DNA of 64,000 nucleotides from a virus (Duplodnaviria; Caudoviricetes), in the IMG/VR virus record IMGVR_UViG_3300032320_001447, positions 110,360 through 174,359 of that record; one strand, written 5' to 3'. The notes under the pieces were generated by a model. It worked only from the letters and a program-made list of their open reading frames with translations, searched no databases and had not been told where the DNA came from. Shown piece after piece: positions 3 through 64,000 of this stretch (positions are counted from its first letter, which is position 1; each line of letters starts with the position of its first letter). The translations under genes were made by a program, and so were the position numbers.

Positions 3-278
3 GGAATAGAATTTTTAACTAATTTTGATAAGAAAATAGACTTATTATTTTTAGACGGTTGGGATAAAGGTTCTCACAATTACGCAGAAAAACATTTAGA
101 AGCATTTTTAGCTGCTAAAGATAAATTGTCTGATTTACATTTGGTATCTATAGATGATACAGATTTTAATACTGAAAGTGCTGGTAAAGATAAATTATTA
201 ACGCCTTATTTATTAGAGAATGGATATATCAAAATACTTTGGGGAAGACAAATTGTTTTCATAAAGAATCAAATATGA
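3..278 (+). CDS. C-terminal part of a class I SAM-dependent methyltransferase (5'-truncated by window)
   Basis: Open frame from nt 3 (GIEFLTNFDKKIDLLFLDGWD...LVSIDDT) with strand-4 'LFLDG' and 'IDD' motifs typical of Methyltransf_24-like proteins; its TGA overlaps the next ATG (ATGA at 275-278). Confidence 0.65.
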   Translation, partial: GIEFLTNFDKKIDLLFLDGWDKGSHNYAEKHLEAFLAAKDKLSDLHLVSIDDTDFNTESAGKDKLLTPYLLENGYIKILWGRQIVFIKNQI

Positions 279-1207
279 AATTAAATTTCTATTACGAAAA
301 TCCTATTCCTGGTTCAATGGCTGGAAATGTATGTCATTTGGTTGCAGCAGAAAGATTCTTGAATTTATGTAAGAACGCCTATCCTGATATAGAGTTTAAT
401 TACATAAATTCTTGGGGAATTACTTATGAAAATGGTTTACCAACCCTTAGAAGTTGTCCAGGTTGTAAATTTAGTCACTTCTTCGTAATAATAGAAAACC
501 CAGATAATAAAAAGTTTTTTGTTATTTCTTATTGGGACAAATTAAAAGACATCACTTTAGACGGCACTTTTTGGGATTTAGAAAATTGTATGGGAATATT
601 TCCATCTGCGGGAACTCACACTGACGATTTTTCTTTTAGATCTATAGATTTAGATTATACTCCTATCGCTCCTTTAACTATACATAAATCTTTAGAAGAT
701 AAAGCGCAAGAATTATATCTCTTAAATGTTCCTAAGACTACACCTAAAAGTTTATTTTTTAGAGGGGGCGATTATGGTTTTAGAAGCTACTTATCTCGTA
801 ATGATAATAGATTTATAATTAATCATGAAAGAATAGATACTGCTATATTTGCAGAGGAAATGGCTAAAAATACTATTAACATAGATATTAACGCAGTAGC
901 TGAAATTTCTGGAAGAACTATAGATGCTATGGCTTTAGGAACTGCTTTAATCAGGCCTAAATTGTCCATCAAATATCATAACCCTCTTATACCAGATTAT
1001 CATTATGCAGAAGTTAAATGTGATGATCTTTCTAATTGGCCTAAATTAGCAGACGCTTATGTAGAAAGATTTGAAGAACTTAAAAAAGACGAAGAGCAAG
1101 TTAAATTCTTTTCAGAAAATGGAAGAAGATGGTACGAAGAAAACGCAACAATAGAAGCTCATGTGAGTATTCTTAAAAAATTAATAGACTTAAATAAACT
1201 TGCCTAA
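275..1207 (+). CDS. GT-B glycosyltransferase-like protein (CgeB/YkvP or GT90-like C-terminus)
   Basis: LFFRGG motif and 'SGRTIDAMALGTALIRP...LIPDYHY'; start moved to ATG 275 (ATGA coupling). Confidence 0.6.
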   Translation: MKLNFYYENPIPGSMAGNVCHLVAAERFLNLCKNAYPDIEFNYINSWGITYENGLPTLRSCPGCKFSHFFVIIENPDNKKFFVISYWDKLKDITLDGTFWDLENCMGIFPSAGTHTDDFSFRSIDLDYTPIAPLTIHKSLEDKAQELYLLNVPKTTPKSLFFRGGDYGFRSYLSRNDNRFIINHERIDTAIFAEEMAKNTINIDINAVAEISGRTIDAMALGTALIRPKLSIKYHNPLIPDYHYAEVKCDDLSNWPKLADAYVERFEELKKDEEQVKFFSENGRRWYEENATIEAHVSILKKLIDLNKLA

Positions 1208-1210
1208 TAA

Positions 1211-2008
1211 ATGAAAGCAGTAGTAACATTGACGACTATACCATCTAGATTGGTTAGCATATATCACGAAGATATAAAAGTGTGTTTAGATTCTTTACTT
1301 AATCAAGATTTTGAAGATTATGAAATTCATTTCAACATACCTTATTTTTTTAAATTAACCGAAGAAGAATATATTATTCCAGAATGGTTGAACGAATTAG
1401 TTGGAAACAATCCTAAGTTAAAAATATTTAGAGGAGAAGATTATGGGTCTATTACAAAATTAGTAGATACTATAAAAAGAATAGAAGATTCTAATTGCAT
1501 TATTATCACAGCAGATGATGATTTAGTATATCATCCAGAAATGGTAAGTGAACAATATAAAAATCAAACAGAAAGATTTAGTAATTGCGCGGTGGGTTAT
1601 GATGGTATTAGTGCATTAGAACCAGTGTTTAGAGACATACGCAGTCATTATGTAGTAAGCGTTCCTTGTAATGTTAAAGTAAATGTATTGCAACACTATA
1701 AAACAGTATCTTACAAAAGAAGTTATTTTGAAGAGGATTTCTTTACTGATTTTGTAGGACAATCTTGGGCCGACGATATTTTAGTATCAGCTTATATGGG
1801 AAAACAAAAGATTACAAAATACGTAACTTACTTTGAAAAAGAAAGCATACCTGCTACTATAGAAGAGTGGAATAGCAGAGGAGGCGTAACAACGTTTCCT
1901 ATAATAAAACACACTCAACACGATTCACAAGAAGGTTGCAATATTAAAAGAAATAATCAAGAAACAGACAATTTTATGTACTTTGTGCATAAAGGATACT
2001 TAAGATAA
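1211..2008 (+). CDS. GT-A fold glycosyltransferase
   Basis: 'VVTLTTIPSRL', 'DYGSITKL', 'IITADDDLVY' DxD motif, 'ADDILVS'. Confidence 0.75.
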   Translation: MKAVVTLTTIPSRLVSIYHEDIKVCLDSLLNQDFEDYEIHFNIPYFFKLTEEEYIIPEWLNELVGNNPKLKIFRGEDYGSITKLVDTIKRIEDSNCIIITADDDLVYHPEMVSEQYKNQTERFSNCAVGYDGISALEPVFRDIRSHYVVSVPCNVKVNVLQHYKTVSYKRSYFEEDFFTDFVGQSWADDILVSAYMGKQKITKYVTYFEKESIPATIEEWNSRGGVTTFPIIKHTQHDSQEGCNIKRNNQETDNFMYFVHKGYLR

Positions 2009-2012
2009 TATT

Positions 2013-4406
2013 ATGAGTTATAAAGAAGTTTTTAGCGGCATTTATGATAATTTTGGTTTCGGAAGTTTGGAAAGCCGATCAGGTCCAGGCAGTACTTTAG
2101 AAGAAACTAAATTTCTTAGAGAGAAATTAAAAGAAATAGTAAAACAGAAAGACATAAAATCTGTAGTAGATATACCTTGCGGTGACTTTAATTGGATGAA
2201 AGAGATTGTATTTAGTTTTGAATCTTATACTGGTGGAGATATTGTGGAGCAGTGCATCAAAACTAATAGTGAAGAATACGGAAGCAAGAGAATAAAGTTT
2301 ATTGACTTCGATCTGTTAAACGATAGTATTCCCGATTCTGATCTTTTAATAGTTAGAGATATTGTTGGTCACTTTCCTTTAGAAGATGGAAAAAAGATAA
2401 TTGATAACATACTCAGATCTAATTGTAAATATCTTTTAAGCACCACATGGGCAAAAAACACAGAACAAGGTTGGAGTAATTGTGGTCCCATGGATGTACA
2501 TAGAGAAAACGAAGGAGTTGATTATGGAAGATTCTATCCAGTTAATTTAATGGCGCACCCATTCAATTTTCCATTAGCCGAAGTATTTTTAGAAGAAGAC
2601 GTACGCGTAGATAATTTTGATAATGGAAATAGAAAGGCTTTAGCTCTATGGGATTTAGATAAAGTTAGAGAACATTTAAAAACAGTTGAACCAATACAAT
2701 CTTTTAATACAGAATCAACAAAAAATTTAACAGTAGTTACAGGACTTTGGAATATTAATAGAAATGGCAGACCATTCGATCACTATATAGATAATTTTAA
2801 AAAGCTGTTAGATACCCCTCAGAATTTATTTATCTTTATTGAAAAAGAATATGAGCATTTAGTTTGGGATAAAAGATCTCCAAAAAATACTTTTGTTAAA
2901 ATCTATGAGTTAGAAGACGTTAAAAACTTATACTCTCCTTTTTGGCAGAAAACTCAAGACCTTAGAAACAGTCCAGATTGGCATAATATCACTGGTGAAA
3001 ATGGATGGTTAAAAGACAGTCCGCAGGCTAGCTTAGAGTGGTATAATCCAATAGTAATGTCAAAAATGTTTATGCTACACGATGTAACCATTTGGAATCC
3101 TTTTGATACAGAGTATTTTATATGGTTAGACGCAGGAATTACTAATACTGTATATGAAAAATATTTTACAGAAAATAATGTGCTAAATAAAATAACTAGT
3201 TACTTAGATCCGTTCCTATTTTTATCTTATCCTTACGAAGCTGTCGATGAAATTCATGGATTTAAGTATGGAGAAATGAATAGGTATGCAGGTACTAAAG
3301 TAGAATATGTATGTAGAGGAGGGTTATTCGGAGGAAGCAAAGCCGCTATACATGAAGCAAATAGTGAATATTACAGTTTACTAAACAATACCTTATCTGA
3401 CGGGTTGATGGGAACAGAAGAAAGCATTTTTACTATAATGTCTTATCTTTATCCTAACAGATATAGAAGATTCGAATTAGACAGTAACGGTTTAGTAATT
3501 AAATTTATACAAGCTTTAGATAGCGAAAATTTGCAGTTATCCGAAATTAAAAAGGATTTGGATTTTATACCTAATAAAAATGTTAACGTAGATAATTTAA
3601 AGACATCTATTTACATGTTGACTTTTAATTTTCCTCATCAAGTAGAACACACAATTCAAACTTGGTTAAAGCACTCAAGATTCATTAGCAATACAAGAAA
3701 TATTTTAATAGATAATTCGACAAATGAAGAGGCTAGAATTGCCAATAAAGAAATTTGTGATAAGTACGGATTCGAACATATCATAACAAATGAAAACGCC
3801 GGTATCAATGGAGGCAGATTCAGAGCGGCCCAGCACTTCCAAGAATCAGATAGCGATTACTACTTATTTTTAGAAGACGATATGGGAATCCATCCTCCAG
3901 AAGAATTAGGTTTTTGTAGAAATGGATTTAGATATTTTGTTCCTAATTTGTACGATAACATTCTTAAGATAATGCACGGAAGCGATTTAGACTTTCTAAA
4001 ATTATCTTACACAGAAGTTTACATGGATAACAATATTCAAGTCTCTTGGTATAATGTTCCTCAAACAGTTAGATCTGAATTTTGGCCCGATTATGATAAA
4101 CTTCCTGTAACAGGACTTGACACTAATTGTCCTAGAACCGCTTTCAACAAAATAGAAGTCGTAGACGGTCTTAGCTATATTACTGGAGAAATCTATTACG
4201 CTAACTGGCCTATGATTGTGGGTAGAAAAGGCAATCAAAAGATGTTCTTAGACACTACTTGGGCTAGACCTTACGAACAGACTTGGATGAGTTATATGTT
4301 CCAAGAAACTAAAAAAGGTAATTTAAAACCAGCGGTGTTATTAGCTAGCCCAATTAACCACGATAGAATAGCTCACTATAAACCCGAAGAAAGACGAGAG
4401 AACTAA
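2013..4406 (+). CDS. Fusion: class I methyltransferase + HtrL/YibB-like domain + GT-A domain
   Basis: N-terminal 'SRSGPGS...VVDIPCGDFNW'; middle 'TVVTGLWNINR...FIWLDAGI...GTEESIF'; C-terminal 'YLFLEDDM'. Confidence 0.7.
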   Translation: MSYKEVFSGIYDNFGFGSLESRSGPGSTLEETKFLREKLKEIVKQKDIKSVVDIPCGDFNWMKEIVFSFESYTGGDIVEQCIKTNSEEYGSKRIKFIDFDLLNDSIPDSDLLIVRDIVGHFPLEDGKKIIDNILRSNCKYLLSTTWAKNTEQGWSNCGPMDVHRENEGVDYGRFYPVNLMAHPFNFPLAEVFLEEDVRVDNFDNGNRKALALWDLDKVREHLKTVEPIQSFNTESTKNLTVVTGLWNINRNGRPFDHYIDNFKKLLDTPQNLFIFIEKEYEHLVWDKRSPKNTFVKIYELEDVKNLYSPFWQKTQDLRNSPDWHNITGENGWLKDSPQASLEWYNPIVMSKMFMLHDVTIWNPFDTEYFIWLDAGITNTVYEKYFTENNVLNKITSYLDPFLFLSYPYEAVDEIHGFKYGEMNRYAGTKVEYVCRGGLFGGSKAAIHEANSEYYSLLNNTLSDGLMGTEESIFTIMSYLYPNRYRRFELDSNGLVIKFIQALDSENLQLSEIKKDLDFIPNKNVNVDNLKTSIYMLTFNFPHQVEHTIQTWLKHSRFISNTRNILIDNSTNEEARIANKEICDKYGFEHIITNENAGINGGRFRAAQHFQESDSDYYLFLEDDMGIHPPEELGFCRNGFRYFVPNLYDNILKIMHGSDLDFLKLSYTEVYMDNNIQVSWYNVPQTVRSEFWPDYDKLPVTGLDTNCPRTAFNKIEVVDGLSYITGEIYYANWPMIVGRKGNQKMFLDTTWARPYEQTWMSYMFQETKKGNLKPAVLLASPINHDRIAHYKPEERREN

Positions 4407-4747: not shown

Positions 4748-5221
4748 ATGTCAAATTGGTTATACGAAGGGAAACAGCTCACTCAACTAAAAGATTTCCC
4801 AGATGATGTTGTAGGATTTGTCTACAAAGTCACAAACAATAAAACTGGCAAATTCTACGTCGGTAAAAAAATCCTTAGAAACGTTCTAACAAAAACGCTA
4901 ACAAAGAGAGAAATTTCAGAGTGGATTAAACCAGGGCGTATTCCAAAGAAAAGAAAGGAAATTAAAGAAAGCAATTGGGCAGACTATTACGGTTCAAGCA
5001 AATTGGTAACAGAAGACATTAAAACCTTCGGTAAAGAAGCATTCACTAGAGAGATATTAAGAGTTTGCACGACCAAGAAACAGATGAGCTATTGGGAGAC
5101 TTATTATCAAATGACACTAAAAGTTTTAGAGGTGAATAGCTATAACGAGAATATAGCAGGTAAATGGTACCGCAGGGATGTCAATCCAATCACACCCGAG
5201 CTCGAGGCCGAAGAGGAATAA
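4748..5221 (+). CDS. GIY-YIG (Seg-like) endonuclease
   Basis: 'GFVYKVTN...KFYVGKK', 'YYGSS', 'FTREIL', 'YNENI'. Confidence 0.8.
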   Translation: MSNWLYEGKQLTQLKDFPDDVVGFVYKVTNNKTGKFYVGKKILRNVLTKTLTKREISEWIKPGRIPKKRKEIKESNWADYYGSSKLVTEDIKTFGKEAFTREILRVCTTKKQMSYWETYYQMTLKVLEVNSYNENIAGKWYRRDVNPITPELEAEEE

Positions 5222-5756: not shown

Positions 5757-6761
5757 TTAATACATTAAGCTTCTGTGCTGTATTCCCTCTAAAAACTCAT
5801 CTTGGCCCTCTTTTGCCAAACTAAACGTGTCAGGGAAAATCCAAGTGTAAGGAATATTCTTGGTCGGCTTCTTTTCACCATGAGAGATTGCGATGTGCTT
5901 CCAAAAGAAACATGTCTTATCTTCTATGTTCAGATACTTCTGGGAAGTCATGGGATTAGATGGGTGATTCACTAACAGATCCATCTGATATAACCATTGC
6001 TCCGCCTGTTTGTTCTCTGGCGTGAACACTCCGGCTTCGTTAATAGTATACTTAACTTTACCGTTTAGGTTCTGACCACCGAATATCTGGTGCAATCCAT
6101 CGAAGTGACCAGTGCCACCGAATAGAATAGACTCGGGATCTACTAAGTGTGGATAGCTCATTGCGATGTATCTTGCAGTGTTCTTACATGGATACAAAGG
6201 ACTTCTAAAGTTTTGATGCTCTTTAAAGTACTTCTCAAGAATCTTTGCAAACTCCATCATTGTGTACTTTCCACGTTTACCATCTTCAACGTCCTGTAAA
6301 ATGTAAGCCAATTCTTGACCAGCAATTCTAGGTCCGTGTAGCAACCAACTCTTAACGTCTGTGCCCTTTGGATAATAGATTTGGAATAGATCGTTTCTCG
6401 CATGACGATTGTTAACGAAGTGTTCTTTGGTTGCCTCTACACCTTCTTTTGCAAGTTTCATAAAGGTTCCCCAATGCTCGTTACTAAAACTAAATACTAG
6501 AGTGTAAAACATTCTTAGCTCGTTGTCAGTAACATTATCTCGCATGTAATAGCAATATGGATGTTCGTGCCAGTGCAAACGATGAGAGAAGATCTGATAC
6601 TCGTCCTTTAATAAACCGTCTTGTCTTGTGTCGTATTTTTGGCAGAACTCAAAGAACTTTTCAATGCGTTGCTCTAATGGCCAATCTCGCATCCAAGAGT
6701 CCTTTGGTTTCTTGCCTTTGAATTCTACTTCACAAGTGTTTGGAAATAAAATATCACTCAT
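5757..6761 (-). CDS. Divergent amino-acid:DNA transferase-like (aGPT-pyrophosphorylase-like) protein, paralog B
   Basis: 'PHLVDPESILFGGTGHFDGL' and 'LNIEDKTCFFWKH' parallel the G-x-G-A...E-x-x-x-C-x-x-x-K core of that family; motif order shared with 7255..8424. Confidence 0.45.
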   Translation of the reverse strand: MSDILFPNTCEVEFKGKKPKDSWMRDWPLEQRIEKFFEFCQKYDTRQDGLLKDEYQIFSHRLHWHEHPYCYYMRDNVTDNELRMFYTLVFSFSNEHWGTFMKLAKEGVEATKEHFVNNRHARNDLFQIYYPKGTDVKSWLLHGPRIAGQELAYILQDVEDGKRGKYTMMEFAKILEKYFKEHQNFRSPLYPCKNTARYIAMSYPHLVDPESILFGGTGHFDGLHQIFGGQNLNGKVKYTINEAGVFTPENKQAEQWLYQMDLLVNHPSNPMTSQKYLNIEDKTCFFWKHIAISHGEKKPTKNIPYTWIFPDTFSLAKEGQDEFLEGIQHRSLMY

Positions 6762-7258
6762 TATTTTGTTAATTTTTTTCTAAAAATAGATGTGCCGTGT
6801 TCTAAGATATTTTTTTCTTCCTCATTAGTTATCTTAAAAATCTTCTTAATATAAGCAGGATTTCTTGGAATAACTAAAGACAATTTTTTCTCTGGGTTAA
6901 AAGAGCCTTCTAATACTTTTGTCATGCATTGTTTAGGATCTACTTCTAATACGTAACCATCATATTCGTGTGGTACTCTAGAAGGTAGAGATAAAATTAA
7001 AAACTTATCGCACTTGAATATGTTGTTTATATTCTGTGTGGTTTTACCCTCGTTGATTGCCCAACAATCGAATTTAACAAATGGAGTAATTGCTTTTACT
7101 TGCACCGTAGCTCCGTCTATTTTCATGTCCCAATAACCGAATTCGTCTGTGTTAATTTCTACTTGGTGTTTTTTTGAATAGTGATTGTACACTATTTTTT
7201 CTGCGATATTGCCCGTTGCTTTTATTTTAAAGGCATCGCGTTGTGTTGTTTGTTTCAT
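6761..7258 (-). CDS. PD-(D/E)xK-type endonuclease, probably free-standing and mobile
   Basis: 'GNIAEKIV...WDMKIDGATVQVKA' E...D...QxK motif; overlaps both neighbours. Confidence 0.55.
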   Translation of the reverse strand: MKQTTQRDAFKIKATGNIAEKIVYNHYSKKHQVEINTDEFGYWDMKIDGATVQVKAITPFVKFDCWAINEGKTTQNINNIFKCDKFLILSLPSRVPHEYDGYVLEVDPKQCMTKVLEGSFNPEKKLSLVIPRNPAYIKKIFKITNEEEKNILEHGTSIFRKKLTK

Positions 7259-8424
7259 TTATAATGTTCTTGTACCCTTTCCTTGTATTGTTCTTCTGTT
7301 ATAAGAAGTGATTTAAGTACCTTGTCATCGGAAGGGTGTTCTGTAATACCGTTAAAACTTGGGACAAGTCCAAGATCTAACATTGCTTTTTGACGACCGT
7401 ATGGATGGTCTTTAATACTGCTGCTGTTCCATACATGATCGAAATCTAAGTGATCGTAGTCTGCGCCTGGTTTTACGTAGTTCTCAATCCATCTAATTGA
7501 GTCACACGCAACGTCCTCTGCGTTGTACGGAAAACTACCAGTGTCGTCGTATATCTTCATCATTACTGAATCCAAAAATACTTCTTCTTGCATTTTCGTA
7601 GACTTCTTTGCTAAATAGCTAACGCACTCCTTTGCATTCGTACCGTAATAGAATGGACTTTCACGGTTAACAAATTCAGGGAACCAGTCTGCTATGTCAG
7701 CAATAAATGCAGCGTACTGAAATCTAAAAGCTCTAAGTCCTCTGTCTGTGTTCCACTTAAACATAAAGTCTCCTACTTCTCTCAAGTTTTTCTTTCCTCC
7801 AGTTTCTAAGAAGGTAGCTACGTCTTCTGCTAACTGAGGAACGAATTCGCAAAGGAAATAATCTCCTCCACGTTTGTAATCTCCTTGAGGTTTAGGGAAA
7901 CTTGGGAACTGATAACCTACCGATGTGTAAAATGGTTTAGTTGCTCCTTTTATGATGTCGATTAGCTGAGGTATATTGTCAGCTTGATGCATCTCGAACA
8001 AGAGTGTGTTGTGATACCCTGAGGGTTTCATCGAGTAGTTAATAGCGGACCCTGTTAATCTGTGAAACAAGAACAAATAGATCCACTCTCTTAAACCGAA
8101 CACGTCGCGCTTACCTGTCCAATTTTTAGAAACTGTTTCTCTCTGTTTTGTCATGTGACCTTGAGTCATTTTATTCCAGTAAGGGTGATCTTCGGAAAAA
8201 CCGTAAAACACATCGTTAACTATCTGTGAGAATCCTGCGTACTTTCTTTCAACCACGTCGTATAGTTCAACGTGTTTCATTAATTCGTCAGGTACAGAAC
8301 TGTCTGCATGTTTTATAATTCCTAAGTTACACTCTTCTTGTTGTGTTTTAGCCATTTGGTAATAGCGTAAAAATTCTTCGTAATACGGTGTGGTTGTAAT
8401 CCACTTCGGGCTTGCTGTAATCAT
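7255..8424 (-). CDS. Divergent amino-acid:DNA transferase-like (aGPT-pyrophosphorylase-like) protein, paralog A
   Basis: 'LYDVVERKY', 'LFHRLTG', 'FQYAAFIADI...PEFVNRESPFYYGTNAKEC', 'YNAEDVACDSIRW'. Confidence 0.5.
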   Translation of the reverse strand: MITASPKWITTTPYYEEFLRYYQMAKTQQEECNLGIIKHADSSVPDELMKHVELYDVVERKYAGFSQIVNDVFYGFSEDHPYWNKMTQGHMTKQRETVSKNWTGKRDVFGLREWIYLFLFHRLTGSAINYSMKPSGYHNTLLFEMHQADNIPQLIDIIKGATKPFYTSVGYQFPSFPKPQGDYKRGGDYFLCEFVPQLAEDVATFLETGGKKNLREVGDFMFKWNTDRGLRAFRFQYAAFIADIADWFPEFVNRESPFYYGTNAKECVSYLAKKSTKMQEEVFLDSVMMKIYDDTGSFPYNAEDVACDSIRWIENYVKPGADYDHLDFDHVWNSSSIKDHPYGRQKAMLDLGLVPSFNGITEHPSDDKVLKSLLITEEQYKERVQEHYK

Positions 8425-8427
8425 ATT

Positions 8428-9207
8428 TTAATTTTGTGCTTCTAATTGTCTTCTTGCTTCCATTCTTTTTTGCATCGCGTCTACGTGTATGCTGTAGTAA
8501 GACTCATCGGTATCCAACCAATGCTCTTCGTCTACCCACTCTTCTCTACCGAATCCGATGCCTGCTATTTTAAGATGCACAGCGCCTTCGCGTTTCAATG
8601 CAATGCGTTTAGTTTTCTCAATCGCTTCGTTTTGAGTTCTTGCCATAACACAACAAACATAATCTTGTAATCGATTCCAATTAGGTTGCTCTTCTCTTGA
8701 ATTAGTGTAGTGCGCGTAATAAACAGTTGTGGGTTTTGGTGTACCTTCTTCTCTTAGTACCCTTTCTTTTTCAGTTCTTGCCCACTCGACGTAGAAGTTT
8801 AGTACGTGGTCCTCAGGATCAACTTCGTCGTACTCGTTACGCTGAAATATTCTCCAAGAATCTATTGCATACTTACCAACTCCTTTAAGTCCAATTAGTT
8901 TGTGAGTAGGAATATAGATAGGATTACCATACTCTTGTACTAACTCCAACCACTCATAAGAGAACTGTTTCCAAGCTTTTACTCTTTTGTTGTAAAAACC
9001 TAAAGGCTTGATTATCTCTATGACCTCTGCGTCCGGACAATCGATTAGACGTTCTGCTGTACCGCATTTGTTAAAGAAGTGTTCTCTAACTTCGTCTACT
9101 TGTCTGTGGTGGGTTTGGTTTAGCATGAAACAGACCATTAACATTTTCCATGGGTCGTCTCTGTACTCTTCCTGTCTAGTAAGGTAGGGTGATGTTTGTA
9201 ATCTCAT
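8428..9207 (-). CDS. MBD4-like HhH-GPD DNA glycosylase with C-terminal extension
   Basis: 'DPWKMLMVCFMLNQT', 'IIKPLGFYNKR', HhH 'LKGVGKYAIDSWRIF', 'VDPEDHVLNFYVEW' closely track the MBD4 catalytic domain; start at ATG 9207 after a TATATTTG element. Confidence 0.85.
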   Translation of the reverse strand: MRLQTSPYLTRQEEYRDDPWKMLMVCFMLNQTHHRQVDEVREHFFNKCGTAERLIDCPDAEVIEIIKPLGFYNKRVKAWKQFSYEWLELVQEYGNPIYIPTHKLIGLKGVGKYAIDSWRIFQRNEYDEVDPEDHVLNFYVEWARTEKERVLREEGTPKPTTVYYAHYTNSREEQPNWNRLQDYVCCVMARTQNEAIEKTKRIALKREGAVHLKIAGIGFGREEWVDEEHWLDTDESYYSIHVDAMQKRMEARRQLEAQN

Positions 9208-9485: not shown

Positions 9486-10727
9486 TTAGAAATTTCTCTT
9501 AGCTGCGATCGTATCTTTAACGAACTGCAAAATCTCTCTGTAGTCGAATCCGTCAGCCATTAAGCTTTCGATACCTGCTTTTATTCTATCTCCACCTAAA
9601 CTCATCATTCTATCGTCGTCGCTCATATCCATGTCATCATCGCCTCTAGTAATCTTATCGATACCAGTTTTGATAGAACCGAATGGATCTTCGTCTTCGT
9701 TTTGAATCATGTGTTCAGGCTCTGAGTAATCTATAGAAATATCATCATTAAAATCGTGATTGATTTGTGTGCCATGATCTTCAGCTATTTCTTCAGCAGG
9801 TGTAAGCATTTTTTCTAACGTATTGAATATCTTTGCCATTAAAGCCAAATAGCCTTCTTTTGTTTTCCAAAGATCTGTACCAGCTGCAACTACTTTTTGT
9901 AGCTTTGGTTCGTCCAAAAATCCTTCTTCTGATTCGTGAACTTCAACTGCGATACCGTCAACTCCTTCCCAACCTGGTGTAGCGTATATGATTGCGTTAG
10001 GGTATTTTTCGCTAGTCCAAGAGATTGATCCAGCTTGTTGTTCGATATCCGATTTCCAGTTACCGACTTCTTTACCTACTAAATCTTTTTCCCAATCCAT
10101 TCTATCTGCTTTACCGTTCCAATCTGCAGTATCAGATCCAGCAAAGATATCGTCTTCAGCTTCTTTCATGTGTGGAGCCTTATAAGCCGCAGCTTTAGCA
10201 CCAGTCACAGTTTTCTTGTCGTGATCTTTCTTGCTCATCTTGTCCAACATATCGCTTGAACGATGACGAGCCAGATTAGTGCGAGTGTTAGCGTGAGCCA
10301 TTTTACCAGCATCGCCGATAGATTTAACGTCGCCTTTCTCTTCTAAACCGTTGTCTTCGTTCCAACCAATTTGATATCCGTTCTTTTCAATTACTTTTCT
10401 TGCTTTCTTTTCGTCTTTAGTGTACACTTCTGCCTCTTCTCCCACTTGATTGGCTTTAACTTTAGCTTTTACGCCAGCTTTGTCAAGTAAATATTGAAAG
10501 TGCTCTGCTTCCTCTTCGATATCATAAGCATCAGGACAAGGAATAACGAAAGCTAATTGCTTTTTACCCTCTTCCATTTCTTCTGTTTCTTCAACAGCTT
10601 CCTCTTTGATAACGTTGAAATCGCCCAACGCTTGGTTAATGTCTTGATACCACATTTCGTTCAGCTGTTGGTAAGATCCAACTTGATTCTGTTTCATGTA
10701 GTCTTTTAAGTCGAAGTTATTCTTCAT
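9486..10727 (-). CDS. Acidic hypothetical protein, possible capsid-internal/scaffold-like protein
   Basis: Very D/E rich, repeated (L/I/M/V)xE motifs, ATATTTAT upstream (10751-10759). Confidence 0.55.
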   Translation of the reverse strand: MKNNFDLKDYMKQNQVGSYQQLNEMWYQDINQALGDFNVIKEEAVEETEEMEEGKKQLAFVIPCPDAYDIEEEAEHFQYLLDKAGVKAKVKANQVGEEAEVYTKDEKKARKVIEKNGYQIGWNEDNGLEEKGDVKSIGDAGKMAHANTRTNLARHRSSDMLDKMSKKDHDKKTVTGAKAAAYKAPHMKEAEDDIFAGSDTADWNGKADRMDWEKDLVGKEVGNWKSDIEQQAGSISWTSEKYPNAIIYATPGWEGVDGIAVEVHESEEGFLDEPKLQKVVAAGTDLWKTKEGYLALMAKIFNTLEKMLTPAEEIAEDHGTQINHDFNDDISIDYSEPEHMIQNEDEDPFGSIKTGIDKITRGDDDMDMSDDDRMMSLGGDRIKAGIESLMADGFDYREILQFVKDTIAAKRNF

Positions 10728-18329: not shown

Positions 18330-19226
18330 CTAATTCTGTTTAAGAAACGGTAGTATTGCTAACTCTTTTGCTTTCGATTCAACCATGCAGTCCACCTCGA
18401 TTCCATACGTATCGGGAAGTGCATTGATGTATTCTGAGTGAGCTTGTGGTTTTTGTTTAGCGTCGTTCTCGTGTAATGCTTTTGATTCTGAATAGTGTAC
18501 GATAGGTCGTATGCCTTTTGGCCATGTAGTAGTTGCTAGTTCTAATGCCTCTTTCTCAGTCATATCTCCAGTACAAAATTGGTGGTGATGGTAGTCGAAT
18601 ACAATGGGAATGCCTAACTTCTTATGAATGTACATTAGGTCTTTAACAGAGTACATAGACGCTTTATCATCGTTCTCTACTGTTAACCTACTACGTACAG
18701 AGTCAGAAAGTCTATTAAAGTTTTCGCAGAATCTATCCATAGCGGTGATCTTGTCTCCGTATACTCCGTTACAGTGTATGTTGATCTTGTTGTATGGAGT
18801 TTTAGAAAGACCCATCATATCGAATAGTTTAGCGTGCATTTCCAAATCGGATATTGCATTGTCGACTACACTGTCCTTTGGTGAAGTAAGTACTACGAAT
18901 GGACCTGGATGGCACGTGATTCTCATATCCCAAAGTTTGGCAAAGTCTCCAGCCTTTTTTAGTTCGGACTTGATCTCTTCGTAGTCCTTTAGTTGAGTTA
19001 TGTCTATGTTATTTCCCCATGGAATTATACTAGACGATAGCCTAAACAGTTTTATTCCGTGTTGCCTATTCCACTCTAGTATCTTAATGATATCTCTAGA
19101 ATTTAGGAGTGCCAACTCTGAGACATAGTCCATTCCTTTGGCTTCGAATGTGCGTTTCATCATTGTTCTATTCGTACTAACCTCTTTCTGCATTGTCATA
19201 TTGATGCACGCGTATCCTAAATTCAT
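18330..19226 (-). CDS. uvsE: UV-damage endonuclease
   Basis: 'MNLGYACIN', 'LFRLSS', 'HPGPFVVL', 'LTVENDDK', 'VFDYHHH', 'VHYSES', 'AHSEYI', 'MVESKAKELA'. Confidence 0.95.
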   Translation of the reverse strand: MNLGYACINMTMQKEVSTNRTMMKRTFEAKGMDYVSELALLNSRDIIKILEWNRQHGIKLFRLSSSIIPWGNNIDITQLKDYEEIKSELKKAGDFAKLWDMRITCHPGPFVVLTSPKDSVVDNAISDLEMHAKLFDMMGLSKTPYNKINIHCNGVYGDKITAMDRFCENFNRLSDSVRSRLTVENDDKASMYSVKDLMYIHKKLGIPIVFDYHHHQFCTGDMTEKEALELATTTWPKGIRPIVHYSESKALHENDAKQKPQAHSEYINALPDTYGIEVDCMVESKAKELAILPFLKQN

Positions 19227-53513: not shown

Positions 53514-53561
53514 ATCTATGGTTTATTATAAATATGCTCAAGGTACAAAAAGTAGTCCCGG

Positions 53562-53649
53562 CGGAGAGAGTAGGATTCGAACCCACGGAACAGTTTCCCG
53601 TTCTCCTGATTTCAAGTCAGGTGCAATAGACCAACTCTACCATCTCTCC
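53562..53649 (-). tRNA. tRNA-Ser(UGA)
   Basis: GGAGAGA/TCTCTCC acceptor, CCTGA-CTTGAAA-TCAGG anticodon arm, long variable arm, GTTCGAATC T-loop, G discriminator; CCA not encoded (CCG follows). Confidence 0.95.
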
Positions 53650-54502: not shown

Positions 54503-54516
54503 AACCTTTATTTTAG

Positions 54517-54884
54517 TGGAGATGACGAGAGTCGAACTCGTGTCTTCACAATGAATAATAATACCAACGTCTCACACGCTTAGATCTACGTTTTAAGCTG
54601 ATCAGTAAAAGGGTCGTATGGTTTTTGGTCCTTACGATATCCACCACTTAATTTTAATCTAAACTAAGAAAATCTGGTTTGTAACTTCTGTTCCTAGGAT
54701 GTTACACCCGATGCTAATTAAGCAGCTAATGCGTACTCGTTCGCGCCTACGAATTCCATTAAAGAATCGAAGGTCATTGTTGACATTTCGTCGGTTATTG
54801 TTTTGTACAGATTTAAAGAGATCTAGTACTTCTCTCTGCGTGTGGTATTACCTCCGAATTGCGAATCAATTCCAAAGCATCCCC
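54517..54884 (-). ncRNA. ssrA: tmRNA
   Basis: 5' GGGGATG / 3' CATCTCC-A with G3:U pair, T-arm GAGTTCGACTC, tag frame 54792-54718 reading DEMSTMTFDSLMEFVGANEYALAA*. Confidence 0.93.
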
Positions 54885-62443: not shown

Positions 62444-64000
62444 TTATTCTATGACTAAGTCTATTTTATTACCTTTTTCGTCTACTGCGTCTGCTAATAC
62501 CGTGTAGAACAAACCAGCTGTATTAATTAAAGTTTCTTTAGGAGTAAAGATTAATTTATATGGAGTACCAACTTTTATTCTTGCAGTTTTTAATTGATCA
62601 ATAGAACCAAAAGTCAATCTGCCATTATTAAGAGTTGAAAAATTTGTTATCGTACTTCCAGCATCAAATATAACATCAGTTAAAGTTAATTTAGTGCTAT
62701 CGTATCGCATAATTATTTCTAAGCCAGCTAAATCAGCTTTTGTTAATCCAGCAGATAATACTACTTTTCCATTTTCTAATTTAGAAGACAAACTCAAAGC
62801 TGCTTTTTCTAATACTGGCGCTGCATAAGCCATAGAGCTAACTGACATTGATTTAATTACATTTGTTGAATTAACGTAATTGTTAGTTGAAATTCTATTC
62901 GCTATTGTATCAGGATGAGATGAATGAGACCAGTTTAAATCTCCACCCCAAGCGTATACTGCATCCACTGATTGATTTACGTTTGTTATTTTTACTCTAT
63001 TATCTGGAGATCCATTCAACCAATTTTGATTTAATAAACCTGATGCCCAATTTATGCTAGTTGCGATTGATGATGGTATTCTTGCTTTAGAAGATACATC
63101 GATTCCCATTATATAAGAGAATAAGTAATAAGAATCGCTTTCGTTAAAAGTAGTATCTCCTATTGTAATATTACCTACGCGATTTTCTAAAGATGGATAA
63201 GTAAAGTATGAACTTGCTCCAGTAATACCAATTTCAGAAATACCCAAGAAAGCTTTATAAGCATCAGATACTGTTATGATATCATTCATAAAAGATTTTT
63301 GAAAAGCCGGTCCGATAAATACTCCAACGCTATCTCCTACTTTGATACCGCTTGTAAATATGGCTTCACCGCTTGCGTCTAAAGATTTGATTAAAATAGG
63401 TTGTTTAGTCCAATCTATTTTTCCACTACCATCAGATTTTAAAGGCATTAATTGAACAGTGTGATCTGTTATGTTAGTATAATTTGAAGGATAAAGAACT
63501 CTTACTTTAAATTGAGATGTGTTACCGATTACGCTTGAATTAGGAATAGATAAGCGTAATACAGCGGACGCAATGTTTGGAACATATCCAGAGGTATCAT
63601 TAATTGCATAAGCCATATGAAGCTTATGTATTTCTTGGAAGTTAGATCTATCTTTAATGATAAATTTTTGAGTGGCCAAAGTACCATCTATAATAGTATC
63701 TGTTCTTTGTACAGTTAATTGACCTGTATTCCAATCGTTATTTGTAGTGTATCCCCATGGAGTGGCTTTGTATTGACCGTATAAATCTCCTACAGCAATT
63801 AAAGGATTAGATCCATTATATGCGTAGTTGTTCCAAGAGGTAAAATAGGTTTGAGCCACAGCGCCTTGAGAAAACACAGTGGTATTTGGCACATATTCTA
63901 AGGCCTTATTATTAAAATCGTATCTTAACCAAAAATAACGCGGCTTTAGGCCATTTTTAGCGATTGTATACTTCATTGTAATAGTATCTCCAACGCGATA
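62444..64000 (-). CDS. Exported cohesin-like/dockerin-like protein (5'-truncated by window)
   Basis: Frame stays open to nt 64000 (YRVGDTITMKY...); 'LRYDFNNKALEY', 'ITVSDAYKAF', 'WGGDLNWSHS', 'LAGLEIIMRYDSTKLTL'. Confidence 0.7.
   Translation of the reverse strand, partial: YRVGDTITMKYTIAKNGLKPRYFWLRYDFNNKALEYVPNTTVFSQGAVAQTYFTSWNNYAYNGSNPLIAVGDLYGQYKATPWGYTTNNDWNTGQLTVQRTDTIIDGTLATQKFIIKDRSNFQEIHKLHMAYAINDTSGYVPNIASAVLRLSIPNSSVIGNTSQFKVRVLYPSNYTNITDHTVQLMPLKSDGSGKIDWTKQPILIKSLDASGEAIFTSGIKVGDSVGVFIGPAFQKSFMNDIITVSDAYKAFLGISEIGITGASSYFTYPSLENRVGNITIGDTTFNESDSYYLFSYIMGIDVSSKARIPSSIATSINWASGLLNQNWLNGSPDNRVKITNVNQSVDAVYAWGGDLNWSHSSHPDTIANRISTNNYVNSTNVIKSMSVSSMAYAAPVLEKAALSLSSKLENGKVVLSAGLTKADLAGLEIIMRYDSTKLTLTDVIFDAGSTITNFSTLNNGRLTFGSIDQLKTARIKVGTPYKLIFTPKETLINTAGLFYTVLADAVDEKGNKIDLVIE

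What the first reader, a model, noticed from the sequence alone, without database searches (positions are those of the whole stretch)
5757..9207. Candidate DNA base-hypermodification module: two divergent amino-acid:DNA-transferase-like paralogs behind an MBD4-like glycosylase
Seen: ORFs 5757..6761 and 7255..8424 share 'P(H/E)(L/F)V(D/N)xES...G(G/T)' and 'NxEDxxC' motifs and follow the glycosylase in one apparent operon. Known: aGPT-pyrophosphorylase/AADT enzymes are glycosylase-fold proteins that install amines or amino acids on activated 5-hydroxymethyluracil in phage DNA. Inference: a divergent two-subunit or two-step version that may make an uncharacterised modified base. The expected dUMP hydroxymethylase and 5hmU DNA kinase are not in this window.
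Basis: partly seen in the sequence, partly recalled or inferred. Interest (0 to 1): 0.75.

Follow-up and report, generated by a model that had tools for sequence, protein, structure and literature searches.

The report
Kinase-less phage DNA base hypermodification genes
Two very divergent relatives of the enzymes that attach amino acids to thymine in other phages' DNA sit behind an MBD4-type repair glycosylase in this uncultured lake phage. They belong to a gene set spread over two loci that probably decorates hydroxymethylcytosine without the usual DNA kinase, so the phage may carry a DNA base nobody has described chemically.

Summary
ORFs 7255-8424 (P0003) and 5757-6761 (P0001) are real, conserved, distant paralogs: profile-profile E 1.4e-5 over 256 columns. 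They lie in a tight operon behind a true MBD4-type glycosylase (E 7e-20 to MBD4).

The P0003 model (pLDDT 95.8) has the helix-hairpin-helix glycosylase fold. Its best solved match is the PaMx11 gp46 amino-acid:DNA transferase (Z 9.3). Both paralogs keep an invariant Glu-x3-Cys, the spacing of that enzyme's essential pair. No Pfam, PHROG or NCBIfam model hits them.

The rest of the pathway lies outside the window:
- Relatives fuse or juxtapose P0003-type genes with an SGNH-fold enzyme.
- They also link them to an M6-gp52-like PLP enzyme, DUF6378, MazG and a short thymidylate-synthase-family gene.
- This genome encodes the SGNH and PLP genes at its left contig end.
- The synthase-like gene falls in a roughly 6.5-kb assembly gap but is present in near-identical relatives (97-100% in the neighbouring PLP protein). 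It carries T4 gp42's Cys148 and Asp179, which points to dCMP specificity.
- No 5-hmU DNA kinase exists.

Best reading: a kinase-less, probably hydroxymethylcytosine-based hypermodification system. No chemistry has been shown. The scan reached the same reading on other genomes (e1-5643537, e1-5668742, e1-5929118, e1-5929126).

The parts
8428..9207 (-). P0004: MBD4-type HhH-GPD DNA glycosylase (about residues 6-149 from the ATG at 9207) plus a C-terminal extension of about 110 aa of unknown fold
   Evidence: Pfam PF00730 at E 3.7e-7. phmmer against PDB: the top 15 hits are all MBD4, E 7e-20 to 3e-18, with the catalytic Asp conserved in the motif AIDSWRIF. It lies upstream of P0003 in most related loci.
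7255..8424 (-). P0003: 389-aa HhH-fold, AADT/aGPT-Pplase-like protein (paralog A). This is the type found fused or adjacent to the SGNH-fold enzyme in other phages.
   Evidence: AF2 model pLDDT 95.8. Best solved match 8z2m, the PaMx11 gp46 AADT, Z 9.3, rmsd 4.1, 209 residues aligned. BFVD hits to AADT-named and HMUDK_hel-named proteins. 952 homologous 90%-identity clusters and 167 50%-identity clusters.
7504..7524 (-). NAEDVAC motif of P0003 (residues 301-307), holding the putative catalytic Glu303 and Cys307
   Evidence: E303 and C307 are invariant and D304 is at least 90% conserved across 64 sequences down to 24% identity. The motif aligns with the DIEHTLCEF motif of HMUDK_hel. The Glu-x3-Cys spacing equals Glu243/Cys247 of PaMx11 gp46 (PMC11472151).
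7639..7683 (-). FPEFVNRESPFYYGT motif of P0003 (residues 248-262)
   Evidence: P249, E255, S256 and G261 are conserved. The motif aligns with the YPHLVDPES..GGTG motif of P0001 and with the GPGA..GL hairpin region of HMUDK_hel.
6761..7258 (-). P0002: 165-aa variable insert between the paralogs. Read by eye it resembles a PD-(D/E)XK nuclease, perhaps of a mobile element. It is not a core part of the system.
   Evidence: No family hit. Among relatives it is either over 90% identical, replaced by a version of 30-44% identity, or absent with the two paralogs directly adjacent.
5757..6761 (-). P0001: 334-aa divergent paralog B of the same HhH/AADT-like superfamily
   Evidence: hhalign against the P0003 superfamily: probability 80%, E 1.4e-5, 256 columns. 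HMM hits to intermediate sequences at E 2e-6. 443 homologous clusters. In relative G001 it stays next to the MBD4-like gene while an SGNH-fold gene replaces P0003.
5910..5930 (-). NIEDKTC motif of P0001 (residues 278-284), holding the putative catalytic Glu280 and Cys284
   Evidence: N278, E280, D281 and C284 are invariant in the family alignment. The motif aligns with the EDVxC motif of P0003.
6108..6155 (-). YPHLVDPESILFGGTG motif of P0001 (residues 203-218)
   Evidence: Invariant L206, V207, P209, E210, G215, G216, T217 and G218. This is the core of the HMM match to the P0003 superfamily.

Best explanation
P0003 and P0001 are two cysteine-dependent, base-flipping enzymes of the HhH-fold aGPT-Pplase/AADT superfamily that act on phage DNA after replication. 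They form one half of a hypermodification system spread over two loci.

The other half lies at genome positions 207-3084, outside the window. It comprises an SGNH-fold esterase/acyltransferase (ND, P0396), an M6-gp52-like fold-type-II PLP enzyme (P0398) and DUF6378. In near-identical relatives these are followed by dUTPase-like, dCMP-deaminase-like and T4-gp42-like hydroxymethylase genes, which fall in this contig's assembly gap.

Inferred sequence of events:
1. The gp42-like enzyme makes 5-hydroxymethyl-dCMP, which is incorporated into DNA.
2. The SGNH enzyme, working with the P0003-type module to which it is fused in other phages, esterifies or otherwise activates the hydroxymethyl group. 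This replaces the phosphorylation done by 5-hmU DNA kinase in known systems.
3. The Glu-x3-Cys site of P0003 and/or P0001 attacks C6, expels the leaving group and lets an amino-acid or amine nucleophile add to the exocyclic methylene.
4. The PLP enzyme tailors the appended group, for example by decarboxylation.
5. The MBD4-type glycosylase removes hmU:G or T:G mismatches that arise when the cytosine-derived base deaminates.

Shown here: the fold, the conserved residues, the homologies, and the gene fusions and linkage. Inferred: every chemical step and the identity of the base.
For: Fold:
- The best solved match of the P0003 model is the PaMx11 gp46 AADT (Z 9.3), then QNG1, AGOG and other HhH glycosylases.
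- BFVD returns AADT-named and HMUDK_hel proteins.

Catalytic pair:
- Glu-x3-Cys is invariant in both families.
- It aligns with the E-x3-C of HMUDK_hel.
- It has the spacing of the essential Glu and Cys of the AADTs (PMC8989533, PMC11472151).

Gene fusion (Rosetta stone):
- Seven representatives of 640-790 aa fuse an N-terminal domain to a P0003-type domain.
- That N-terminal domain matches this genome's own ORF 2149-3084 at E up to 6e-49.
- It has the SGNH fold (Z 10-11) with invariant GDS, GxND and His residues.

Operon in 11 other phage contigs:
- The conserved order is DUF6378, ND, P3, PLP, TS-family (PF00303, E 9e-26), MazG.

Shuffling between the two loci within this lineage:
- G001 has MBD4-like, ND, P0001 at one locus and GroEL, P3, PLP, DUF6378, TS at the other.
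- G002 has ND, P0003, P0001 contiguous.

PLP enzyme:
- hhalign against the M6 gp52 decarboxylase gives E 1e-4 over 222 columns, with the PLP lysine aligned.

Hydroxymethylase:
- It is present 0.8-3.6 kb after DUF6378 in 61 of 75 related loci, including all long-enough ones at 97-100% PLP-protein identity.
- It has Asp at the gp42 Asp179 position and the gp42 NSNYG motif, whereas the M6 dUMP enzyme has Asn there.

No kinase:
- PF18748 is absent from the genome, and no kinase occurs in the conserved operons.
Against: - No sequence model of the known families (PF18724, PF18723) hits either protein. The hhalign results against them are weak (E 7e-4 and 0.02).
- Z 9.3 is only moderately above the background expected for helical folds (note).
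- I could not obtain a residue-level superposition showing that Cys307 lies on Cys247 of gp46.
- The hydroxymethylase is not on this contig. Its presence is inferred from relatives and from colinearity.
- In the close relative L257 a dUTPase-like and a dCMP-deaminase-like gene sit next to the TS-like gene. That would equally suit a dUMP-based route.
- No SGNH enzyme has been shown to act on DNA bases.
- No modified nucleoside has been measured in any carrier.
Confidence: 0.6

Rival explanations
1. Same system, but built on thymidine. The TS-like enzyme hydroxymethylates dUMP, the DNA carries 5-hmU, and P0003/P0001 append a group to it as in M6, ViI or PaMx11, only with a non-kinase activation step.
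For: - All characterised AADTs act on 5-hmU derivatives (PMC8989533).
- In relative L257 the TS-like gene is preceded by dUTPase-like and dCMP-deaminase-like genes, which would feed dUMP.
- No canonical thymidylate synthase or ThyX was found on this contig.
Against: - The TS-like protein has Asp at the position of gp42 Asp179 and shares the gp42-specific NSNYG and GF(C/R)ND motifs. The M6 dUMP hydroxymethylase has Asn there.
- The nearest cultured hits are annotated as dCMP hydroxymethylase.
- T4 itself combines cd, dUTPase/dCTPase and gp42, so those neighbouring genes do not discriminate.
- The residue after the catalytic Glu is Asp in this family, against Thr in the AADTs (PMC11472151).
Confidence: 0.2
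2. Division of labour as in known systems. P0003 is only the helical DNA-binding and base-flipping partner of the SGNH enzyme, as HMUDK_hel is for the P-loop kinase, and P0001 alone is the group transferase.
For: - P0003-type domains, never P0001-type, are the ones fused to ND.
- The best profile match of P0003 is HMUDK_hel, not AADT.
- Known clusters also carry one paralog of each kind (PMC8989533).
- Aeromonas phage 31 ORF233c fuses ND to a sub-threshold HMUDK_hel-like domain.
Against: - The 11 small-phage operons have a single P3 gene and no P0001-type gene, so P3 must suffice there.
- Glu303 and Cys307 are invariant in all 64 P3-type sequences, which argues for catalysis rather than binding alone.
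Confidence: 0.3
3. Repair module. P0003 and P0001 are unusual HhH DNA glycosylases or damage sensors that work with the MBD4-like enzyme and the nearby UvdE, and they install no modification.
For: - The fold is shared with AGOG, AlkA, Nth and OGG glycosylases at Z 5-8.
- The neighbour is a genuine repair-type glycosylase.
- UvdE lies at 18330-19226.
Against: - The invariant Glu-x3-Cys is a feature of the transferase/kinase-helical clade, not of HhH-GPD glycosylases.
- Fusion and operon linkage to SGNH, PLP, TS-like and MazG genes is a biosynthetic context, not a repair context.
- The best structural match is the transferase.
Confidence: 0.07
4. The enzymes act on free nucleosides or nucleotides, like the QNG1/DUF2419 queuosine-salvage hydrolase, rather than on DNA.
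For: QNG1 (7ugk) is the second-best solved match at Z 8.2. The other locus is rich in nucleotide-pool genes.
Against: QNG1 lacks the Glu-x3-Cys context, as far as I recall. The closest match is a DNA-acting transferase, and the operon partner is a DNA glycosylase.
Confidence: 0.05

Closest known systems
Amino-acid:DNA transferases (AADT, formerly aGPT-Pplase clade 2, Pfam PF18724): M6 gp51, ViI gp247, PaMx11 gp46/PUGT (PDB 8z2m), PhiW-14 gp109
   Same: - HhH-derived two-bundle fold; this is the best solved structural match (Z 9.3).
- Invariant Glu-x3-Cys with the spacing of the essential Glu and Cys.
- Occurs as a paralogous pair.
- Linked to a TS-family hydroxymethylase and to an M6-gp52-type PLP enzyme.
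   Different: - No detectable Pfam-level sequence similarity.
- Larger proteins (334 and 389 aa against about 290 aa).
- Glu is followed by Asp, not Thr.
- No 5-hmU DNA kinase partner.
- The associated hydroxymethylase is gp42-like, with a predicted dCMP substrate.
- Embedded next to an MBD4-type glycosylase.
5-hmdU DNA kinase helical domain (HMUDK_hel, formerly aGPT-Pplase clade 1, Pfam PF18723): M6 gp55, SP10 gp186, PhiW-14 C9DG43
   Same: - Closest family by profile-profile comparison (E 7e-4 over 263 columns, with the glycine hairpin and E-x3-C motifs aligned).
- Several Foldseek hits.
- Like it, the P0003 type is found fused to the N-terminal catalytic domain of an activating enzyme.
   Different: - Below family thresholds.
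- The fused partner is an SGNH-fold enzyme, not a P-loop kinase.
T-even phage hydroxymethylcytosine pathway (T4 gp42 dCMP hydroxymethylase, gp56, glucosyltransferases)
   Same: - T4-like virion genes (per earlier scan notes, not tested here).
- gp42-like hydroxymethylase with the Cys148 and Asp179 equivalents in near-identical relatives.
   Different: No glucosyltransferase was linked to the module. Post-replicative tailoring is predicted to be done by AADT-like, SGNH and PLP enzymes rather than by sugar transfer.
MBD4 (human and mouse methyl-CpG-binding domain protein 4, glycosylase domain)
   Same: P0004 residues 6-149 align end to end with the MBD4 catalytic domain at E 7e-20, with the HhH GxG motif and the catalytic Asp conserved.
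   Different: No methyl-CpG-binding domain. It carries a C-terminal extension of about 110 aa of unknown fold, is phage-encoded, and lies in an operon with base-modifying enzymes.

Membership tests
AADT / Pfam PF18724 (ADDT) | Match to the family HMM above the gathering score | tested here: not met
   hmmscan of P0001 and P0003 at E up to 0.1 finds nothing. A six-frame search of the whole contig at E up to 10 finds nothing. M6 gp51 used as a positive control scores E 1.4e-46.
AADT / Pfam PF18724 (ADDT) | HhH-glycosylase-derived fold as in PaMx11 gp46 (8z2m) | tested here: met
   The P0003 model (pLDDT 95.8) has 8z2m_A as its top hit among 48,161 chains: Z 9.3, rmsd 4.1, 209 residues aligned. 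P0001 was not modelled. It is linked to P0003 by hhalign at E 1.4e-5.
AADT / Pfam PF18724 (ADDT) | Essential Glu and Cys four residues apart (Glu243/Cys247 in gp46; mutation kills M6 gp51 and ViI gp247) | tested here: met
   E303/C307 are invariant in 64 sequences and E280/C284 are invariant in 23 sequences. The spacing is the same. Structural equivalence of the positions was not checked residue by residue.
AADT / Pfam PF18724 (ADDT) | Works on 5-phosphomethyl-dU made by a co-encoded 5-hmU DNA kinase (PF18748) | tested here: not met
   No PF18748 match in the genome at E up to 10. No kinase occurs in the conserved operons of 11 other phages.
HMUDK_hel / Pfam PF18723 | Match to the family HMM | tested here: not met
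   No hmmscan hit and none in the six-frame genome search. Remote similarity only: hhalign E 7e-4, probability 26%; Foldseek E 0.01-0.2 at probability 0.93-1.0.
MBD4-type HhH-GPD glycosylase (P0004) | HhH-GPD domain with a catalytic Asp, closest to the MBD4 catalytic domain | tested here: met
   PF00730 at E 3.7e-7, above the cut-off. The top 15 PDB sequence hits are all MBD4, E 7e-20 to 3e-18. The Asp is kept in the motif AIDSWRIF.
SGNH/GDSL hydrolase superfamily (partner ND, genome 2149-3084) | SGNH fold with Ser (GDS), Gly, Asn (GxND) and His blocks | tested here: met
   Model pLDDT 82.5. All 50 top PDB hits over residues about 130-306 are SGNH-type enzymes except one phosphatase-domain protein (3slr) and the Oskar OSK domain (5a4a); Z up to 11.1. 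G139, D140, S141, G185, N186, D188 and H297 are invariant. No Pfam model hits it.
T4 gp42-type dCMP hydroxymethylase (TS family PF00303) | TS-family fold, catalytic Cys (gp42 Cys148), and Asp at gp42 position 179 instead of the Asn of TS and dUMP enzymes | tested here: met
   Met in relatives only. L185 scores PF00303 at E 9e-26. The own-lineage genes L257 and L253 have the TPC and GFCND motifs. The gene is not on this contig because the contig ends 206 bp after DUF6378.
M6 gp52-type fold-type-II PLP enzyme (partner P0398, genome 549-1436) | PLP-binding Lys in a G-x-K-x-R motif and homology to the hypermodification decarboxylase | tested here: inconclusive
   K57 is invariant. hhalign against M6 gp52: probability 58%, E 1e-4, 222 columns, with the Lys aligned. 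PDB profile search: cysteine synthase at E 0.04. Atlas look-alikes carry PALP. No direct PF00291 hit.

The most novel reading that the evidence does not exclude
Aquatic T4-like phages, and a set of smaller phages, make a so far undescribed amino-acid- or amine-substituted 5-methylcytosine derivative in their DNA by a kinase-less route. An SGNH-fold enzyme docked on an HhH base-flipping module O-acylates 5-hydroxymethylcytosine in DNA. A Glu/Cys transferase of a new aGPT-Pplase clade then swaps the ester for a nitrogen nucleophile, and a PLP enzyme trims the product. This would be the first AADT-type chemistry on cytosine and the first SGNH enzyme acting on a DNA base.
Probability: 0.35. Interest if true: 0.9.

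Novelty: new variant of a known kind. Interest (0 to 1): 0.78.

Why it matters
Post-replicative pyrimidine hypermodification is known from a handful of cultured phages. It always starts from 5-hmU and always goes through a DNA kinase.

This family is invisible to Pfam, PHROGs and NCBIfam, yet it comprises about 950 protein clusters at 90% identity and 167 at 50% identity, almost all from uncultured phages.

If the reading is right, it adds three things:
- a second activation chemistry;
- a new target base, cytosine;
- a dedicated mismatch glycosylase that would guard the modified genome against deamination.

This bears on how abundant lake and marine phages evade restriction and CRISPR, on errors in metagenomic and nanopore base-calling, and on new enzymes for site-specific DNA functionalisation.

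Aeromonas phage 31 and 44RR-type phages are cultured. They carry a related fusion of the SGNH domain to an HhH domain and also encode gp42, so they offer an immediate experimental entry point.

Tried and rejected
Searches that found nothing:
- Pairwise BLASTP of the two ORFs was not significant, and shallow-profile hhalign was marginal. Deeper alignments superseded both.
- Pfam, PHROGs and NCBIfam gave nothing for P0001, P0002 or P0003.
- blastn and tblastn of the region, of P0001 and P0003, and of a small-phage P3 against 50,697 cultured-phage records gave no match.
- HMM searches of PDB sequences returned only noise.
- Foldseek against PDB gave only weak AGOG/OGG hits at E 0.3. The exhaustive VIA search was needed.
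- A single-protein locus search with the fusion P0335 found nothing. The alignment-based search worked.

Readings I rejected:
- "No thymidylate-synthase-family gene in the genome" is an assembly-end artefact. The contig stops 206 bp after DUF6378 and its other end cuts an ORF. Relative L257 shows about 6.5 kb in between that includes the TS-like gene.
- Bacteroides phage BF486P2 has the nearest cultured TS-like gene but none of the other components, so it is not a model for this system.

Left untested:
- An earlier scan note says the N-terminal part of the SGNH protein resembles T4 glucosyltransferase. I did not test this. Residues 1-120 of my model were barely sampled by the fold search.

Full report
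**What is there.** The window is the last 64 kb of a 174,359-bp uncultured phage contig. Earlier scan notes call the phage T4-like. On the minus strand four ORFs are packed with 3 bp between them at most, or overlapping by 1-4 bp:
- P0004, 8428-9207 from its likely ATG start;
- P0003, 7255-8424, 389 aa;
- P0002, 6761-7258, 165 aa;
- P0001, 5757-6761, 334 aa.

P0004 is a genuine MBD4-type glycosylase. PF00730 scores above its cut-off. The top 15 PDB sequence hits are all MBD4, at E 7e-20 to 3e-18, over residues 6-149, and the catalytic Asp is kept. P0001, P0002 and P0003 hit nothing in Pfam, PHROGs or NCBIfam and nothing in 50,697 cultured-phage records. They are nevertheless abundant in metagenomes: 952 clusters at 90% identity for P0003 and 443 for P0001.

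BLASTP does not see the relationship. Three further results do:
- A profile search gave 167 representatives of the P0003 superfamily at 50% clustering.
- The P0001-family HMM hits divergent members of that set at E 2e-6 to 1e-4, over 100-130 residues centred on the P-x-x-V-D-P-E-S...G motif.
- hhalign of a 64-sequence P0003 alignment (identities down to 24%) against the P0001 alignment gives probability 80% and E 1.4e-5 over 256 columns, with both motifs in register.

P0002 is a variable insert: it is over 90% identical, or replaced by a 30-44% version, or absent among about 80 related loci. The order P0004, P0003, P0001 is kept in most of those loci.

**Fold and active site.**
- AlphaFold2 with the deep alignment gives a confident all-helical model of P0003 (pLDDT 95.8, pTM 0.92).
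- An exhaustive structural comparison with 48,161 PDB chains puts the PaMx11 gp46 5-PmdU glycinyltransferase first (8z2m; Z 9.3, rmsd 4.1, 209 residues). That protein is an amino-acid:DNA transferase. Next come QNG1, AGOG, AlkA, Nth and OGG, all of the HhH superfamily.
- Foldseek against viral models returns a 59%-identical protein that UniProt names "Amino acid:DNA transferase domain-containing". It also returns a 330-aa protein of the same name, probably the P0001 orthologue, then SP10 5-hmdU DNA kinase, "Pplase1" proteins and the PhiW-14 HMUDK helical domain, at probability 0.96-1.0.
- By profile comparison the nearest family is HMUDK_hel (PF18723, the former aGPT-Pplase clade 1), at E 7e-4 over 263 columns. 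AADT (PF18724) follows at E 0.02.
- E303 and C307 of P0003 are invariant in all 64 sequences, and E280 and C284 of P0001 are invariant in its family.
- The Glu-x3-Cys spacing equals Glu243/Cys247 of PaMx11 gp46, where Cys stacks on the flipped base and is proposed to attack C6 (PMC11472151). It also equals the Glu/Cys pair whose mutation abolishes M6 gp51 and ViI gp247 activity (PMC8989533).
- The proteins therefore work like AADTs at the level of fold and catalytic pair, but they fail sequence membership of both Pfam families.

**The rest of the system.** Seven superfamily representatives of 640-790 aa carry an extra N-terminal domain of about 330 aa. That domain (ND) matches a stand-alone ORF of this same genome, 2149-3084 (P0396), at E up to 6e-49. 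Its model (pLDDT 82.5) has the SGNH esterase/acyltransferase fold over residues about 130-306. All 50 top hits are SGNH-type enzymes apart from two rows (3slr and the Oskar OSK domain); Z reaches 11.1. The GDS Ser, the GxND Asn and the His are invariant.

In 11 contigs of other, smaller phages the conserved order is:
- DUF6378;
- ND;
- P3 (a P0003-type gene);
- a 300-aa protein homologous to this genome's ORF 549-1436 (P0398);
- a 215-aa thymidylate-synthase-family protein (PF00303, E 9e-26);
- MazG.

P0398 has an invariant G-x-K-x-R lysine. It aligns with the M6 gp52 PLP decarboxylase of thymidine hypermodification at probability 58% and E 1e-4 over 222 columns.

Within this phage's own lineage the genes are shuffled between two loci:
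- G000, this genome: MBD4-like, P0003, P0001 at one locus; GroEL, ND, P0397, PLP, DUF6378 at the other.
- G001, 183 kb, complete: MBD4-like, ND, P0001; and GroEL, P3, PLP, DUF6378, TS-like.
- G002, 180 kb, complete: ND, P0003, P0001; and PLP, DUF6378, TS-like.

Fusion, operon linkage and reciprocal position swapping together argue that these genes form one system.

**The "missing" hydroxymethylase.** The contig has no PF00303 or ThyX match. However, it ends 206 bp after DUF6378, and its other end cuts an ORF. In 61 of 75 related loci, including all long-enough ones at 97-100% PLP-protein identity, a TS-like gene lies 0.8-3.6 kb downstream of DUF6378. Relative L257 (91% nucleotide identity) is colinear with both contig ends. 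It shows about 6.5 kb between them, containing dUTPase-like, dCMP-deaminase-like and TS-like genes. The absence is therefore an assembly artefact.

The TS-like protein shares T4 gp42's NSNYG motif and catalytic Cys context. In its G-F-C-N-D motif it has Asp at the position of gp42 Asp179. The M6 dUMP hydroxymethylase has Asn there. From established enzymology of gp42, as I recall it, Asp179 sets cytosine specificity. This points to 5-hydroxymethyl-dCMP rather than 5-hm-dUMP.

No 5-hmU DNA kinase (PF18748) exists in the genome or in the conserved operons.

**Mechanism proposed.** These steps are inferred:
1. hmC enters DNA through the gp42-like enzyme.
2. The SGNH enzyme, docked through the P0003-type module, esterifies or otherwise activates the hydroxymethyl group in place of phosphorylation.
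3. The Glu/Cys site of P0003 and/or P0001 attacks C6 and exchanges the leaving group for an amino-acid or amine nucleophile.
4. The PLP enzyme tailors the adduct.
5. The MBD4-type glycosylase removes hmU:G or T:G mismatches produced by deamination of the cytosine-derived base.

The Asp that follows the catalytic Glu is Thr in the AADTs, where it helps to hold thymine O4 through a metal ion. Here it may read the cytosine N4 instead. That is speculation.

**Rival readings** are listed in their own section:
- a thymidine-based version;
- P0003 as a non-catalytic partner of ND;
- a pure repair module;
- action on free nucleotides.

**Cultured handle.** ND homologues occur in 43 cultured phage records, mostly T4-like Aeromonas phages. 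Aeromonas phage 31 ORF233c (795 aa) is ND (E 4e-88) fused to a C-terminal domain with a sub-threshold HMUDK_hel match (E 0.0036) and with GPGA and E-x3-C-like motifs. The same phage has a gp42 orthologue and td.

**Literature and earlier scan notes.** Full-text searches found no paper linking SGNH enzymes or AADT-type enzymes to hydroxymethylcytosine. The scan's own earlier reports on other genomes reached the same "kinase-less hydroxymethylcytosine hypermodification" reading. I arrived at it here from independent computations.

**Verdict.** This is a new variant of a known kind of system. No chemistry has been demonstrated.

Noticed in passing
window 62444-64000 and genome position 1: The contig is not closed. 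Its right end cuts a minus-strand ORF of more than 518 aa, and its left end stops 206 bp after DUF6378. Relative L257 shows about 6.5 kb in between, with dUTPase-like, flavodoxin-like, dCMP-deaminase-like and gp42-like genes. Absence calls on this genome need that caveat, despite CheckV's 100% completeness estimate.
   Followed up: yes
L327:7001-9388 (Aeromonas phage 31 ORF233c, NC_007022): A cultured T4-like phage encodes a 795-aa fusion of the SGNH-fold ND domain with a sub-threshold HMUDK_hel-like domain. A sodium:solute symporter gene lies next to it. The phage also has a gp42 orthologue. It could serve as a laboratory model for the kinase-less chemistry.
   Followed up: partly
genome 1440-2129 (L163), outside the window: A 229-aa ORF with a lipoprotein-like signal (P0397) sits between the ND and PLP genes only in this phage's closest relatives. 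It occupies the slot where other phages have the P3 gene. No family hit.
   Followed up: no
window 8428-8760: The MBD4-like glycosylase carries a C-terminal extension of about 110 aa with no detectable family. It is conserved in relatives, but its fold and role are unknown.
   Followed up: no
window 9486-10727: A 413-aa, highly acidic ORF with no family hit lies directly upstream of the glycosylase. It is only 49-80% identical in relatives where the neighbouring genes are over 90% identical, so it evolves fast.
   Followed up: no
window 54516-54884 and 53560-53649: A phage-encoded tmRNA (tag peptide ending in ALAA) and a tRNA-Ser(UGA).
   Followed up: no
window 4748-5221 (+): A SegE-type GIY-YIG homing endonuclease (PF19835, E 7e-30) lies at the strand switch just before the operon's downstream end.
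   Followed up: no
window 18330-19226 (-) and genome 5813-8128: The phage has a UvdE UV-damage endonuclease (E 7e-70) and a family-A DNA polymerase. A family-A polymerase is unusual for a phage described as T4-like.
   Followed up: no
L223, L233 (G006, G007): Many large phage contigs carry the ND gene alone, with no P3-type or PLP gene within 10 kb, and none found in the 74-77% complete records. ND may have other partners.
   Followed up: partly
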